This document shows, piece after piece, positions 230-10,961 of a stretch of 11,257 nt of DNA. Origin of the DNA: a virus; UHGV virus genome UHGV-0341487. The stretch is one strand, 5' to 3'. The first letter of the stretch is position 1. Each line of letters begins with the position of its first letter. The translations under genes were made by a program, and so were the position numbers. The notes below the pieces were generated by a model, which saw nothing but the letters and a program-made list of their open reading frames with translations, did no database searches and was not told where the DNA came from.

Positions 230-589
230 TCAATCTCCTTTGGTACCAATGTTTACAGCCTGGCAAGCCTCTTTGAGCACCCAGTCAACAGCGTCTTTCC
301 ATGCTCCGGTTTCGACTGGCGGATTCTCACGCTTTACCTGTTCATAGAAACGCACTGCTTTAATCAATCCTTCTGGTGTCAGTGGCACAGGCGGGACAGT
401 GAATAAGGCCTGAATCTCATAGCTCGGCCTGTCGTTGCAATCCTCTTTTGTCGGGACATATTTCCAGTCACCAACCCACTGCTTCCCCTGAAAGTCTGTA
501 ACGCCTTTTTTCACGTAGCGATATCGCCATGCCACTGGTTTTGCCTGCCCTGCCTTTTCATGCCCTTCCTGATAATTAATCTCGCTCAT
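230..589 (-). CDS. Hypothetical phage protein (119 aa)
   Basis: ORF-track ORF; ATG at 589..587 overlaps stop of upstream small ORF (ATGA overlap). No recognisable motif. Confidence 0.55.
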   Translation of the reverse strand: MSEINYQEGHEKAGQAKPVAWRYRYVKKGVTDFQGKQWVGDWKYVPTKEDCNDRPSYEIQALFTVPPVPLTPEGLIKAVRFYEQVKRENPPVETGAWKDAVDWVLKEACQAVNIGTKGD

Positions 590-762
590 TCATCGCCCCA
601 CTCATCACAATATGCTTCGACCGGTGTTTTCCCTGCTTCATAATCATCACGCCATGCTTCAGCATCAGCGGCACTTCCACCGCGTAACTCTGCATAATCC
701 ATTAACAGTTCATGCCATTCTTCAAAACTGGCGTTATATTTAGTTGAACCAGAATCAGCCAT
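586..762 (-). CDS. Small acidic protein (58 aa), not in ORF track
   Basis: Found by manual translation: ATG at 762..760 preceded by GAGGAA, reads MADSGSTKYNASFEEWHELLMDYAELRGGSAADAEAWRDDYEAGKTPVEAYCDEWGDE, stop TGA at 588..586. Start overlaps stop of upstream gene (ATGGCTGA) and stop overlaps next start (ATGA), fitting the coupled chain. About 16 acidic versus 4-5 basic residues. Confidence 0.45.
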   Translation of the reverse strand: MADSGSTKYNASFEEWHELLMDYAELRGGSAADAEAWRDDYEAGKTPVEAYCDEWGDE

Positions 763-937
763 TTTGTTCTTCCTCTTCGTCTTTTATTTCGTGATATGAG
801 TAATTGCAGTAGTTAAAGAAAATATCTTTTGCTTCGTCATGTATTTCATCAGGCGTCGCATCATCATCCACTTCGATTTCATCCTCGAAATCTCCACCGG
901 CTATTCCCGTTTCAATAATTATTTTAAACTTTCGCAT
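755..937 (-). CDS. Small hyper-acidic protein (60 aa)
   Basis: ORF-track ORF, ATG at 937. About 20 Asp/Glu in 60 residues including DDD and EEEE runs. Upstream SD GGAGG is separated from the ATG by a GC hairpin (see findings). Confidence 0.5.
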   Translation of the reverse strand: MRKFKIIIETGIAGGDFEDEIEVDDDATPDEIHDEAKDIFFNYCNYSYHEIKDEEEEQNG

Positions 938-1030
938 TTAACTACCGCCCTTTCGGGCGGCCTCCTGATGTTCTGAAGGTGCAGAAATCCCTCCGGTTAA
1001 GGATTAAATTTTTAACAGAGCTAAATTTAA

Positions 1031-1388: not shown

Positions 1389-1925
1389 TCACTCTCCTTT
1401 GATGCGAATGCCAGCGACGCGTGGCACATTAACTTCCACAATGCGCACAGTTGGTTTGTACATCTCAATTGCTGTCAGCCAGTCAGCTCCTGTCATGCGC
1501 TTTTCTGCATCGCCATTAGTCCACTGAACCGGTACACCAATAGCCTTCATCGCGATTTCTATTTCCCCGGCAATGGCGCTTTTTCCGCAACCAGTAAAAC
1601 CAGATACAACGACAAGAACTTCGCCCTTGGCCGGTTTTATTTCCCGCGCTTCCAGCTCTTTAACGCGCTCCTCGAGTTCGTAGACTCTGCATTGTTCTTT
1701 ATCATCAATCAGATATAACCCAAGACATTCGCTTTCTACCCAGCCACCGAAATCATGATCGTAACGCTCACATGAAAACTCACCGTCGCTGTCCTTTGTT
1801 GGGATGGTGTAGCTATCTAATGGGCCACCATACGTCGGCACATTTCCCAATGTCGGATGCTCAATCCACATGAAAAATGCACGTCCGGTTATAGGGCAAA
1901 TATCTGGTCGCCATTGGTTACTCAC
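1389..1925 (-). CDS. Walker A (P-loop) motif protein, about 178 aa
   Basis: ORF-track ORF 1389..1952 trimmed to GTG at 1925..1923, 6 nt after AGGAGG (1937..1932); GTGAGTAA overlaps the upstream stop. Strand-loop-helix VLVVVSGFTGCGKSAIAGEIEIAM contains GxxGxGKS, encoded at 1578..1601. Confidence 0.6.
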   Translation of the reverse strand: MSNQWRPDICPITGRAFFMWIEHPTLGNVPTYGGPLDSYTIPTKDSDGEFSCERYDHDFGGWVESECLGLYLIDDKEQCRVYELEERVKELEAREIKPAKGEVLVVVSGFTGCGKSAIAGEIEIAMKAIGVPVQWTNGDAEKRMTGADWLTAIEMYKPTVRIVEVNVPRVAGIRIKGE

Positions 1926-2217
1926 TGTTTGCCTCCTGAAAAATAACTGCATGCCCCAGCTTCTCCGCCAGCGCCAGTTCTGCCTTAGCGCCTGCTGACC
2001 GCTGCCAGCCTTTCAGCATGTAAATCGCATCAACACAACGAATCATTGCCATGCAAATATCCATGTAGTGTGGCTGTGTCAGCCCGTCCGGAAGTACTGC
2101 CGGGTTTAAGACTGTATGCCCTTCCCGTTTCAGTTCCTCTTCCGCATCGTGGAACGCCTCACGGTTGAAATTTTTATACCCGGTCATCGGACCAGCGATA
2201 TAAATCCTCACCCTCAC
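1918..2217 (-). CDS. DUF4406-like / nucleoside 2-deoxyribosyltransferase-fold protein (99 aa)
   Basis: N-terminal RIYIAGPMTG followed by NP and a GW..S.GA..E pattern, characteristic of the DUF4406 / nucleoside deoxyribosyltransferase-like fold (recalled, not searched). GTG start at 2217 overlaps upstream stop (GTGA); AGGAGG 7 nt upstream. Confidence 0.6.
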   Translation of the reverse strand: MRVRIYIAGPMTGYKNFNREAFHDAEEELKREGHTVLNPAVLPDGLTQPHYMDICMAMIRCVDAIYMLKGWQRSAGAKAELALAEKLGHAVIFQEANSE

Positions 2218-6363: not shown

Positions 6364-6421
6364 TTTCTGGTGACGTTTGGCGGTATCAGTTTTACTCCGT
6401 GACTGCTCTGCCGCCCTTTTT
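6364..6421 (+). ncRNA. dicF: DicF small regulatory RNA (ftsZ-targeting antisense sRNA) with its own intrinsic terminator
   Basis: Sequence tttctggtgacgtttggcggtatcagttttactccgtgactgctctgccgcccttttt matches my recollection of E. coli DicF; ends in GC stem plus T run; located between ydfC and dicB exactly as in the Qin dicB operon. Confidence 0.8.
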
Positions 6422-7060: not shown

Positions 7061-9532
7061 ATGAGTAAAGTCTTTATTTGCGCCGCTATTCCTGACGAAC
7101 TGGCAACAAGGGAAGAAGGCGCTGTGGCTGTAGCCACAGCCATTGAAGCTGGCGACGAACGCCGTGCTCGAGCAAAATTTCACTGGCAGTTCCTGGAACA
7201 TTATCCGGCTGCTCAGGACTGCGCTTATAAATTTATTGTCTGCGAGGATAAACCTGGCATACCCCGCCCTGCCCTCGATTCATGGGATGCTGAATATATG
7301 CAGGAAAACCGCTGGGATGAGGAGTCTGCTTCTTTTGTCCCGGTTGAGACTGAATCCGATCCGATGAACGTCACTTTTGACAAGCTGGCCCCTGAAGTAC
7401 AGAACGCTGTCATGGTTAAGTTCGACACATGTGAAAACATCACCGTTGATATGGTTATTAGCGCACAGGAATTGTTGCAGGAAGACATGGCAACATTCGA
7501 CGGACATATCGTTGAAGCGTTGATGAAAATGCCAGAAGTTAACGCCATGTATCCGGAGCTTAAGTTGCACGCCATTGGGTGGGTTAAGCATAAATGTATT
7601 CCTGGTGCTAAATGGCCCGAAATTCAGGCAGAGATGCGCATCTGGAAAAAACGTCGCGAAGGTGAACGCAAGGAAACCGGAAAATACACGTCTGTTGTTG
7701 ATCTCGCCCGCGCCAGAGCCAATCAACAGTACACTGAAAATTCAACAGGAAAAATCAGCCCGGTCATTGCTGCCATTCATCGCGAATACAAGCAGACATG
7801 GAAAACACTGGATGACGAACTGGCCTACGCTCTCTGGCCTGGTGATGTGGATGCCGGAAACATTGACGGCAGCATCCATCGCTGGGCAAAAAAAGAAGTT
7901 ATCGACAACGACCGCGAAGACTGGAAGCGTATCTCGGCATCAATGCGCAAACAGCCTGATGCCCTTCGCTACGACCGCCAAACTATTTTTGGCCTTGTCC
8001 GTGAGCGTCCGATCGACATTCACAAAGATCCCGTAGCACTGAACAAATATATCTGCGAATACCTGACGACAAAGGGCGTGTTTGAGAATGAAGAAACAGA
8101 CCTGGGCACTGTTGATGTTCTCCAGTCATCAGAAACACAAACTGATGCAGTGGAAACTGAGGTATCTGATATCCCAAAAAATGAAACCGCGCCGGAAGCT
8201 GAACCATCTGTAGAGCGTGAGGGGCCGTTCTATTTCCTCTTCGCAGATAAGGACGGAGAAAAATACGGTCGCGCAAACAAACTTTCTGGTCTGGATAAGG
8301 CACTGGCTGCTGGCGCCACTGAAATCACAAAAGAAGAATATTTTGCCCGAAAAAATGGCACATACACGGGCTTACCGCAAAATGTAGATACCGCTGAAGA
8401 TTCAGAACAACCAGAGCCGATAAAAGTTACCGCTGACGAAGTAAACAAAATTATGCAGGCAGCCAATATCAGCCAGCCTGACGCCGATAAGTTGCTTGCT
8501 GCATCACGTGGTGAATTTGTTGAAGGGATTAGTGACCCGAATGATCCGAAATGGGTTAAGGGGATCCAGACCCGCGATTCTGTGAACCAGAACCAGCATG
8601 AATCGGAACGGAACTACCAAAAAGCGGAACAAAACAGCACAAATGCGTTACAAAACGAGCCAGAAACGAAACAGCCTGAACCAGTGGCGCAACAGGAAGT
8701 GGAAAAAGTCTGCACCGCCTGCGGTCAGACCGGCGGCGGCAACTGCCCTGATTGTGGCGCGGTGATGGGCGACGCAACATACCAAGAAACATTCGATGAA
8801 GAGTATCAGGTTGAAGTTCAGGAAGATGATCCGGAGGAAATGGAAGGCGCTGAACATCCACACAAGGAGAACACTGGCGGCAATCAGCATCACAATAGCG
8901 ATAATGAAACTGGCGAGACGGCAGATCACCCAATTAAGGTGAACGGTCATCACGAAATCACATCCACCAGCAGGACGTGTGACCATCTAATGATCGACCT
9001 TGAAACCATGGGAAAAAATCCTGATGCCCCGATCATCTCAATAGGTGCAATATTTTTCGATCCGCAAACCGGAGATATGGGACCGGAATTTAGTAAGACT
9101 ATCGATCTGGAAACTGCTGGCGGAGTCATTGATCGGGACACCATTAAATGGTGGCTTAAGCAATCACGCGAAGCGCAATCTGCCATTATGACCGATGAAA
9201 TCCCGTTAGATGATGCACTGTTACAATTGCGGGAATTTATCGACGAAAACTCCGGTGAATTTTTTGTTCAGGTCTGGGGAAATGGAGCCAACTTCGACAA
9301 CACGATTTTGCGCCGTTCATACGAACGGCAGGGGATCCCCTGCCCGTGGCGTTACTACAACGATCGCGATGTACGCACAATCGTTGAGCTGGGGAAAGCC
9401 ATAGACTTCGATGCCAGAACGGCTATTCCATTCGAAGGTGAGCGCCATAATGCACTTGATGACGCTCGTTACCAGGCAAAATACGTTTCAGCTATCTGGC
9501 AAAAACTGATCCCGAGTCAGGCTGATTTTTAA
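7061..9532 (+). CDS. Large multidomain phage protein (823 aa): unrecognised N-terminal domain, acidic/Gln-rich linker with CxxC-x7-CxxC zinc ribbon, C-terminal DEDDh-type 3'-5' exonuclease domain
   Basis: Long ORF with GAGG SD. C-terminal about 180 aa (nt 8987-9529) carry MIDLETMG (Exo I, D-x-E), GNGANFDNT (Exo II) and HNALDDARYQAKY (Exo III, His plus Asp). Zinc ribbon CTACGQTGGGNCPDCG near nt 8709-8762. Occupies the slot between dicB/ydfD and xis/int. Confidence 0.85.
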   Translation: MSKVFICAAIPDELATREEGAVAVATAIEAGDERRARAKFHWQFLEHYPAAQDCAYKFIVCEDKPGIPRPALDSWDAEYMQENRWDEESASFVPVETESDPMNVTFDKLAPEVQNAVMVKFDTCENITVDMVISAQELLQEDMATFDGHIVEALMKMPEVNAMYPELKLHAIGWVKHKCIPGAKWPEIQAEMRIWKKRREGERKETGKYTSVVDLARARANQQYTENSTGKISPVIAAIHREYKQTWKTLDDELAYALWPGDVDAGNIDGSIHRWAKKEVIDNDREDWKRISASMRKQPDALRYDRQTIFGLVRERPIDIHKDPVALNKYICEYLTTKGVFENEETDLGTVDVLQSSETQTDAVETEVSDIPKNETAPEAEPSVEREGPFYFLFADKDGEKYGRANKLSGLDKALAAGATEITKEEYFARKNGTYTGLPQNVDTAEDSEQPEPIKVTADEVNKIMQAANISQPDADKLLAASRGEFVEGISDPNDPKWVKGIQTRDSVNQNQHESERNYQKAEQNSTNALQNEPETKQPEPVAQQEVEKVCTACGQTGGGNCPDCGAVMGDATYQETFDEEYQVEVQEDDPEEMEGAEHPHKENTGGNQHHNSDNETGETADHPIKVNGHHEITSTSRTCDHLMIDLETMGKNPDAPIISIGAIFFDPQTGDMGPEFSKTIDLETAGGVIDRDTIKWWLKQSREAQSAIMTDEIPLDDALLQLREFIDENSGEFFVQVWGNGANFDNTILRRSYERQGIPCPWRYYNDRDVRTIVELGKAIDFDARTAIPFEGERHNALDDARYQAKYVSAIWQKLIPSQADF

Positions 9533-10871: not shown

Positions 10872-10961
10872 TGGCGGAGAGAGGGGGATTTGAACCCCCG
10901 GTGGAGTTGCCCCCACTCCGGTTTTCGAGACCGGTCCGTTCAGCCGCTCCGGCATCTCTCC
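10872..10961 (-). tRNA. serU: tRNA-Ser (anticodon CGA), class II tRNA with long variable arm and encoded CCA
   Basis: Reverse complement reads GGAGAGATGCCGGAGCGGCTGAACGGACCGGTCTCGAAAACCGGAGTGGGGGCAACTCCACCGGGGGTTCAAATCCCCCTCTCTCCGCCA: 7-bp acceptor stem GGAGAGA/TCTCTCC, anticodon loop CUCGAAA, TpsiC arm GGGGGTTCAAATCCCCC. Confidence 0.93.

What the first reader, a model, noticed from the sequence alone, without database searches (positions are those of the whole stretch)
586..937. Two adjacent hyper-acidic mini-proteins (60 aa and 58 aa), one absent from the ORF track: DNA-mimic / anti-restriction candidates
Both ORFs are translationally coupled members of the early operon and are extremely acidic (about 20 of 60 and 16 of 58 residues are Asp/Glu, net charge near -14 and -12), with runs such as DDD and EEEE. 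Small, strongly acidic early phage proteins often act as DNA mimics that inhibit restriction enzymes or other DNA-binding host proteins. The 58-aa ORF (586-762) falls below the ORF-track size cut-off but has an SD and overlapping start/stop coupling.
Basis: inference. Interest (0 to 1): 0.5.

Follow-up and report, generated by a model that had tools for sequence, protein, structure and literature searches.

The report
Two conserved acidic phage mini-proteins
Two neighbouring genes in an E. coli prophage encode real, conserved, unusually acidic 60- and 58-residue proteins. Both are widespread in phages and plasmids, their function is unknown, and the idea that they imitate DNA to block host enzymes remains plausible but unproven.

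Summary
On the minus strand, ORF60 (937-755) and ORF58 (762-586) are intact and overlap by 8 nt. They are 33% and 28% Asp/Glu (net charge -15 and -12), the most acidic and third most acidic of 96 lambdoid proteins compared. Both are real genes: dN/dS is 0.06 and 0.03, the cassette occurs in 1750 of 5426 complete E. coli genomes, and RefSeq already annotates both.

ORF60 belongs to Pfam DUF7167, which is found from Enterococcus phages to Pseudomonas plasmids. ORF58 belongs to a small family confined to Enterobacterales/Aeromonas-type elements: Ackermannviridae, P2-like and lambdoid prophages, and more than 400 IncI2 plasmids. The acidity is conserved across both families.

AlphaFold2 gives confident compact folds: beta-beta-alpha for ORF60 and a three-helix bundle for ORF58. 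Neither fold nor sequence matches any solved structure, known DNA mimic or anti-restriction family.

The DNA-mimic / anti-restriction idea is therefore neither confirmed nor refuted. In its favour are the conserved charge, the early-operon position and the phage-plus-plasmid distribution. Against an Ocr-like anti-type-I role are the small size and the position far from the promoter. The most likely role is stoichiometric binding to a basic, nucleic-acid-binding protein, with the target unknown. These are ordinary but reasonable candidates for screening.

The parts
755..937 (-). ORF60, a 60-aa DUF7167 protein. Predicted fold: beta1 (residues 2-8), beta2 (17-23), helix (29-43), then a disordered acidic tail (52-60).
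   Evidence: Pfam PF23768 at E=9e-15, 55 bits against a 24.4-bit cut-off. phrog_1997 at E=1e-30. AF2 pLDDT 89.4. dN/dS 0.06 against L012.
586..762 (-). ORF58, a 58-aa acidic three-helix-bundle protein (helices 13-26, 34-42, 47-55). Family motif: GGSAADAxAWRxDYxAGKTPxEAWxDEWG.
   Evidence: phrog_519 at E=2e-22; no Pfam hit. 59 cluster representatives in the 1.84-billion-protein library. W37 is invariant; F13, W16, Y41, G44 and P47 are about 90% conserved. AF2 pLDDT 85.5. dN/dS 0.03.
755..762 (-). 8-nt overlap (ATGGCTGA) between the ORF60 stop and the ORF58 start.
   Evidence: Sequence. The same junction follows DUF1187 in IncI2 plasmids.
771..775 (-). Shine-Dalgarno-like GAGGA, 9 nt upstream of the ORF58 ATG, inside the ORF60 coding sequence.
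   Evidence: Sequence.
586..589 (-). ATGA overlap between the ORF58 stop and the start of the downstream 119-aa gene.
   Evidence: Sequence.
945..966 (-). AGGAGG (961-966) followed by a 6-bp GC stem with a GAAA loop (945-960), then 7 nt (UAGUUAA) before the ORF60 ATG.
   Evidence: RNA fold. Invariant in all E. coli copies examined, including ArgO145.
230..589 (-). Downstream translationally coupled 119-aa gene (phrog_660), followed by an Ea22-like remnant at 1-228.

Best explanation
ORF60 and ORF58 are two unrelated, independently mobile accessory proteins of phages and plasmids. Each is small, folded and cytoplasmic, and each is made during the early (replication-phase) programme of the prophage.

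The most likely mechanism is stoichiometric binding. Each protein would present a rigid, densely negative surface that occupies a basic, nucleic-acid-binding surface on another protein, probably a host or competitor DNA- or RNA-binding protein. That would inhibit or redirect the target, in effect electrostatic mimicry of nucleic acid.

What is shown: the genes are real and under purifying selection; the acidity and the fold core are conserved; they sit in early operons in many elements.

What is inferred: that the acidic surface is the working surface, that the partner is a nucleic-acid-binding protein, and that the benefit goes to the element rather than the host. The target is unknown. ORF60's target should be broadly conserved in bacteria. 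ORF58's target may be specific to Enterobacterales-type hosts.
For: - Family-wide acidity: net charge is -9 to -18 in 49 DUF7167 members and -3 to -15 in 30 ORF58 relatives, while the invariant positions are mostly hydrophobic core.
- Confident compact folds.
- Early-operon position in unrelated backbones:
  - the pR operon after the O/P-like genes in this window;
  - the exo-xis region of Stx2a phage ArgO145;
  - a P22-like pL operon, between Dam and theta;
  - directly after gpA in P2-like prophages;
  - after Ea22-like genes in either the nin or the exo-xis position;
  - blocks of small genes in large virulent phages.
- Presence on conjugative plasmids: more than 400 IncI2 plasmids, Rts1 and pWW53.
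- Purifying selection in intact prophages, but stop codons in decayed Qin-like remnants. This argues for a benefit to the element rather than the host.
- No enzyme-like family, transmembrane segment or DNA-binding motif was found.
Against: - No binding partner or phenotype is known.
- There is no homology or fold match to any characterised DNA mimic or inhibitor.
- Several acidic positions in DUF7167 (E9, E22, D24, E31, D38) are as conserved as the core. They could be structural (helix capping) or metal-binding rather than a generic charge array.
- Neighbouring genes differ from element to element, so context points to no particular target.
Confidence: 0.4

Rival explanations
1. One reading: Ocr/ArdA-type DNA mimics that block type I restriction enzymes (or BREX) and protect incoming unmodified DNA.
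For: Charge density is as high as in known mimics. Relatives occur on both phages and conjugative plasmids. DUF7167 sits beside Dam or N6-methyltransferase genes in some prophages.
Against: - Pfam, which includes Ocr and ArdA models, gives no hit, and hhalign against T7 Ocr gives probability 0.1%.
- The folded cores of about 45-50 residues are far smaller than the Ocr or ArdA dimers that span a type I DNA-binding site (established knowledge).
- The genes are promoter-distal, so they would be expressed late relative to DNA entry.
- In IncI2 plasmids the ORF58 homologue lies about 15 kb from the relaxase/oriT region, in the transfer-gene operon, rather than among the first genes beyond oriT.
- DUF7167 is not mentioned in the EVADES catalogue files held.
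Confidence: 0.1
2. Developmental or host-physiology modulators of the kind described for the lambda and Stx-phage exo-xis region (orf60a, orf61, orf63, ea8.5, ea22). On this reading they tune the lysis-lysogeny decision, induction or the host cell cycle by binding RNA polymerase, replisome or regulatory proteins through specific contacts. The acidity would be incidental or serve solubility.
For: In Stx2a phage ArgO145 the same cassette lies in the exo-xis region. ORF58 relatives repeatedly neighbour Ead/Ea22-like genes. Exo-xis genes are early, non-essential and affect lysogenisation and induction (PMC3824215, PMC8614690). The specific conserved motifs of both families suggest a defined interface.
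Against: There is no homology to lambda orf60a (DUF1317), orf63 (DUF1382), orf61 or Orf55. Both families also occur in strictly virulent phages (Ackermannviridae, Phapecoctavirus, Herelleviridae), which make no lysogeny decision. hhalign against the RNA polymerase inhibitor T7 Gp2 gives probability 0.15%.
Confidence: 0.25
3. Partners or chaperones of the element's own basic proteins. For example, they could neutralise or regulate the neighbouring Ea22-like, Zn-ribbon or P-loop proteins, or a repressor.
For: The genes are translationally coupled to their neighbours. ORF58 is recurrently adjacent to Ea22-like genes. E. albertii carries an in-frame fusion of DUF7167 with the 187-aa P-loop protein encoded at window 1389-1952.
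Against: Neighbours are not conserved across phage types. In virulent phages and plasmids the two families occur without each other and without Ea22-like genes. The fusion is confined to one lineage (6 contigs) and may be a deletion accident.
Confidence: 0.15
4. Chance ORFs or decaying remnants with no function.
For: Both are very short, and both are pseudogenes in some cryptic remnants.
Against: dN/dS is 0.06 and 0.03. Profile hits reach E=1e-30 and 2e-22. Homologues are found from Enterococcus phages to Pseudomonas plasmids. The AF2 folds are confident.
Confidence: 0.01

Closest known systems
Pfam DUF7167 (PF23768) / PHROG 1997
   Same: ORF60 matches the full-length model well above threshold. 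Its length, conserved core (I8 E9 T10 E22 I32 A36 F40 C44 Y46) and acidity are typical of the family.
   Different: Nothing differs; it is an ordinary member. The family itself has no known function.
PHROG 519 (uncharacterised small phage proteins, including CBA120 orf183)
   Same: ORF58 aligns over its whole length (E=2e-22) and shares the GSAADAxAWRxDYxxGKTP motif.
   Different: There is no Pfam model. The 'DUF5419' label on a Morganella phage homologue could not be reproduced.
Small acidic phage inhibitors and DNA mimics (T7 Ocr, T7 Gp5.9, phi29 p56, PBS2 Ugi, ArdA)
   Same: Small, cytoplasmic, early, very acidic (pI about 4), and carried by mobile elements.
   Different: There is no sequence or fold relationship. 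The folds found are a beta-beta-alpha mini-domain and a three-helix bundle. No target is known, and the genes are promoter-distal rather than first-expressed.
[quoted passage not shown]
   Same: The cassette occupies the exo-xis region in Stx2a phage ArgO145 and travels with Ea22-like genes. Like the exo-xis genes, these are small, early, non-structural genes.
   Different: They are not homologous to any of the lambda exo-xis proteins. In this window the cassette sits in the pR (nin-type) operon instead.

Membership tests
Pfam DUF7167 (PF23768) | Whole-protein score above the Pfam gathering threshold over the full model. | tested here: met
   55 bits against 24.4; model positions 1-60 of 60. 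RefSeq gives the same name.
PHROG 519 family (ORF58) | A significant profile match, plus conservation of the aromatic core and the GKTP turn. | tested here: met
   E=1.8e-22. W37 is invariant; F13, W16, Y41, G44 and P47 are at least 90% conserved.
Ocr (T7 gp0.3) anti-restriction family | Sequence homology to Ocr and an elongated all-alpha dimer that mimics about 24 bp of bent DNA. | tested here: not met
   No Pfam hit. hhalign probability 0.1%. The ORF60 model is beta-beta-alpha, and the ORF58 model is a 58-aa three-helix bundle.
ArdA / ArdB-KlcA anti-restriction families | A match to the Pfam or NCBIfam models. | tested here: not met
   No hits in Pfam or NCBIfam.
T7 Gp5.9 (RecBCD-inhibiting DNA mimic) | Sequence homology and a coiled-coil dimer. 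| tested here: not met
T7 Gp2-like RNA polymerase inhibitors (beta-beta-alpha-beta fold) | Sequence or fold similarity to Gp2. | tested here: not met
DNA-mimic proteins (a functional class) | High net negative charge that is conserved across the family. | tested here: met
DNA-mimic proteins (a functional class) | Surface carboxylates spaced like the phosphates of B-DNA. | not testable with these tools
   Model coordinates are not exposed to scripts.
DNA-mimic proteins (a functional class) | Binding in the DNA-binding site of a target protein. | not testable with these tools
   This needs co-folding or a binding experiment.
Lambda exo-xis proteins (orf60a DUF1317, orf63 DUF1382, orf61, Orf55) | Sequence homology to those families. 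| tested here: not met
   No such Pfam hits. The lambda annotations and the Orf55 sequence are dissimilar.
Known anti-phage defence components (PADLOC) | A match to a PADLOC model. | tested here: not met
   No hits for either protein.

The most novel reading that the evidence does not exclude
DUF7167 and the ORF58 family could be two new folds of small nucleic-acid-mimicking counter-defence or host-takeover proteins. They would be shared by prophages in about a third of complete E. coli genomes, by large virulent phages and by conjugative plasmids such as IncI2, and each would disable a DNA-binding immune or nucleoid protein.
Probability: 0.15. Interest if true: 0.6.

Novelty: new member of a known kind. 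Interest (0 to 1): 0.3.

Why it matters
If either protein proves to be a small inhibitor of a DNA-binding host or immune protein, it would give a function to a Pfam DUF and to an unnamed family. Both are extremely common in E. coli prophages, in candidate therapeutic phages (Kuttervirus, Phapecoctavirus, Enterococcus Herelleviridae) and in IncI2 plasmids, and a new compact inhibitor scaffold would follow. As it stands, the result is a well-characterised pair of candidates, not a discovery.

Tried and rejected
- **DUF5419 label.** The label on a Morganella phage homologue of ORF58 was not reproduced by a Pfam scan.
- **Link to phage exonucleases.** DUF7167 abuts 'exonuclease' genes in Enterococcus phage MDA2 and Salmonella phage SE479. 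These turn out to be unrelated families (DUF3850/ASCH and DUF2800/PD-(D/E)XK), and other contexts lack them.
- **Obligate pair.** The two families have different distributions and occur alone in virulent phages and plasmids.
- **Plasmid leading region.** In IncI2 the ORF58 homologue is about 15 kb from mobC/relaxase, in an operon headed by a CaiF/GrlA-like regulator upstream of the T4SS genes, so no leading-region claim is made.
- **Neighbours in plasmids.** Flanking genes in Rts1 and Klebsiella plasmids have no Pfam families.
- **Literature.** Searches for DUF7167, DUF5419, DUF1187, the PHROG ids and the protein accessions found nothing relevant.
- **Local signals.** No promoter-like site on the coding strand and no terminator-like site was found at 1-2000.

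Full report
**Where the window comes from.** The window is 100% identical to a prophage of E. coli strain 4/4 and many ST131-type genomes, and 99.9% identical to phage vB_EcoS-689R5. It is a Qin/Rac-like lambdoid prophage next to a tRNA-Ser gene and mtfA. On the minus strand the early-right operon runs in this order:
- cro (4468-4241)
- ydaT-like gene (4244-3819)
- O-like gene (3753-2677)
- DUF977 gene (2636-2214)
- DUF4406 gene (2217-1918)
- a 187-aa P-loop-like protein (1952-1389)
- a 118-aa Zn-ribbon protein (1387-1031)
- a 93-nt gap
- ORF60 (937-755)
- ORF58 (762-586)
- a 119-aa protein (589-230)
- an Ea22-like remnant (228-1)

**The observation.**
- ORF60 has 20 D/E in 60 residues, net charge -15. 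ORF58 has 16 D/E in 58 residues, net -12.
- The two ORFs overlap by 8 nt (ATGGCTGA). ORF58 and the next gene overlap as ATGA. A GAGGA sits 9 nt upstream of the ORF58 start.
- Among 96 annotated proteins from four lambdoid loci, the mean acidic fraction is 0.137 ± 0.046. ORF60 (0.33) ranks first and ORF58 (0.28) third.
- 'Absent from the ORF track' is only a size cut-off. RefSeq annotates both genes.

**They are real genes.**
- Against a 93%-identical copy (L012), ORF60 has 9 synonymous and 3 non-synonymous differences. ORF58 has 11 and 2. The dN/dS values are 0.06 and 0.03.
- The hairpin-ORF60-ORF58 cassette covers at least 80% of the query in 1750 of 5426 complete E. coli genomes.
- In decayed Qin-like remnants surrounded by IS elements (L011, L013), both genes carry stop codons and ORF58 has lost its ATG. 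This is the pattern expected for genes that serve the phage rather than the lysogen.

**ORF60 family (DUF7167).**
- ORF60 matches Pfam DUF7167 (55 bits against a 24.4-bit cut-off) and phrog_1997 (E=1e-30).
- tBLASTn finds it in 169 phage records. These include Enterococcus Herelleviridae (about 42% identity), E. coli Phapecoctavirus, Jersey-like Salmonella phages and Klebsiella prophages.
- It is also on Pseudomonas plasmids such as pWW53.
- BFVD structural matches extend the fold to Lactococcus and Streptomyces phages. All of these are uncharacterised.
- In 49 members, the net charge ranges from -9 to -18.
- I8, E9, T10, E22, I32, A36, F40, C44 and Y46 are at least 90% conserved.

**ORF58 family.**
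- ORF58 has no Pfam or NCBIfam model, but it matches phrog_519.
- An exhaustive HMMER search of 1.84 billion cluster representatives found only 59 hits. Nearly all are stand-alone proteins of 50-65 aa.
- Members occur in Ackermannviridae (CBA120 orf183, Kuttervirus, and Klebsiella and Dickeya relatives), a Morganella phage and lambdoid prophages.
- In P2-like Salmonella prophages the gene sits immediately after gpA.
- On plasmids, it is present at 84.5% identity in more than 400 IncI2 conjugative plasmids. There it lies in an operon ordered CaiF/GrlA-like regulator, DUF1187, ORF58-like, SPFH/NfeD, T4SS.
- More distant copies are on Rts1 and on large Klebsiella and Raoultella plasmids.
- The conserved positions are the aromatic core (W37 invariant; F13, W16, Y41, G44, P47). 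The net charge ranges from -3 to -15.

**The pair is a local association, not an obligate unit.** In E. coli lambdoid phages the two genes travel as one cassette.
- In this window it sits in the pR operon.
- Elsewhere each family occurs without the other.

**Structures.**
- AlphaFold2 with family alignments gives confident models. ORF60 has pLDDT 89.4, with beta1 at residues 2-8, beta2 at 17-23, a helix at 29-43 and a low-confidence acidic tail at 52-60.
- ORF58 has pLDDT 85.5 and forms three helices at 13-26, 34-42 and 47-55.
- Sequence and profile searches of the PDB are empty.
- hhalign against T7 Ocr, Gp2 and Gp5.9 gives probabilities below 1%.
- PADLOC has no hit. The EVADES anti-defence catalogue files do not mention DUF7167 or PF23768.

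**What this means for the DNA-mimic / anti-restriction idea.**

In its favour:
- The extreme charge is a selected family trait.
- The proteins are compact and have no enzymatic or DNA-binding signature.
- They are encoded in early operons, next to replication and recombination genes, in at least five unrelated backbones.
- Both families cross between phages and conjugative plasmids.

Against the specific Ocr/ArdA-like version:
- The folded cores are about 45-50 residues. That is too small, unless they oligomerise, to fill a type I enzyme's DNA site. This rests on established knowledge of the Ocr and ArdA dimers.
- The genes are promoter-distal: about 3.5 kb beyond cro in this window, and next to xis/int in Stx phages. 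The proteins would therefore appear well after DNA entry.
- Several acidic positions in DUF7167 are as conserved as the core, which suggests a specific structural role rather than a generic charge array.
- The IncI2 copy is not in the first-entering segment next to oriT.

The spacing of carboxylates could not be measured, because model coordinates are not exposed to scripts.

**Verdict.**
- The best-supported reading (confidence about 0.4) is that both are small early accessory proteins that act by binding. Each would use a rigid acidic surface against a basic, probably nucleic-acid-binding, protein. The target is unknown.
- DUF7167's spread across Gram-positive and Gram-negative hosts implies a universal target. 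The narrow spread of the ORF58 family is compatible with a target specific to Enterobacterales-type hosts.
- The rivals are classical anti-restriction (about 0.1), exo-xis-type developmental modulation through specific contacts (about 0.25) and partnership with co-encoded phage proteins (about 0.15).
- The genes are already catalogued as uncharacterised families, so the finding is a sound but ordinary pair of candidates for anti-defence or host-takeover screens.

Noticed in passing
window 945-966 (-): An AGGAGG is separated from the ORF60 AUG by a 6-bp GC stem with a GAAA loop plus 7 nt. If the stem forms, the Shine-Dalgarno sequence would be brought to a normal distance from the start codon. 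The motif is invariant in all E. coli copies and in ArgO145, while DUF7167 genes in other phages use ordinary spacing.
   Followed up: partly
window 938-1030, compared with L010 6755-6967: The 93-nt gap upstream of ORF60 looks like the scar of a 70-aa gene (ArgO145 gp16). That gene lies between the Zn-ribbon gene and the hairpin in the Stx2a phage.
   Followed up: partly
window 6365-6416 (+) and 10875-10961 (-): Rfam finds a DicF antisense RNA (76.7 bits) upstream of dicB, and a tRNA gene at the prophage end next to the integrase gene. RefSeq flags that integrase as frameshifted in the identical genome.
   Followed up: partly
L014 8348-9177 (IncI2 plasmid NZ_CP011291.1): An 84.5%-identical ORF58 homologue is present in more than 400 IncI2 conjugative plasmids. 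It is co-oriented after a CaiF/GrlA-like regulator and a DUF1187 gene, with the same ATGGCTGA overlap junction, upstream of the SPFH/NfeD and T4SS genes.
   Followed up: partly
L026-L029 4001-4189 (P2-like Salmonella prophages): An ORF58 homologue overlaps the end of the replication gene gpA and borders the variable gpA-portal segment. In L027 that segment holds an nSTAND/AAA_16 gene, which is a possible defence gene.
   Followed up: no
P0233 (E. albertii, 247 aa), compared with window 1389-1952: An in-frame natural fusion of DUF7167 with the 187-aa P-loop-like protein encoded about 450 nt upstream of ORF60 in this window. It could be a deletion accident or a hint of a functional link.
   Followed up: no
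L011 and L013, 3001-3352: In IS-ridden Qin-like remnants both genes are pseudogenes. ORF60 has K37 changed to a stop. ORF58 has W37 changed to a stop and its ATG changed to GTG. About 440 E. coli records fall in this 80-90% identity band.
   Followed up: partly
L005 6042-6281 (Klebsiella phage ST512-KPC3phi13.3): Another small hyper-acidic protein (79 aa, 29% D/E, net -16, with a C-terminal run of D/E) lies four genes downstream of the DUF7167 gene.
   Followed up: no
window 7061-9532 (+): The 823-aa 'exonuclease' of the early-left operon carries a C-terminal Rv2179c-like 3'-5' exoribonuclease domain (E=1.5e-67). The first 640 or so residues have no family match.
   Followed up: no
window 1389-1952 (-): The 187-aa gene overlaps the end of the DUF4406 gene by 35 nt. 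It shows only weak P-loop kinase-like matches (AAA_16 and APS-kinase, E about 0.05).
   Followed up: no
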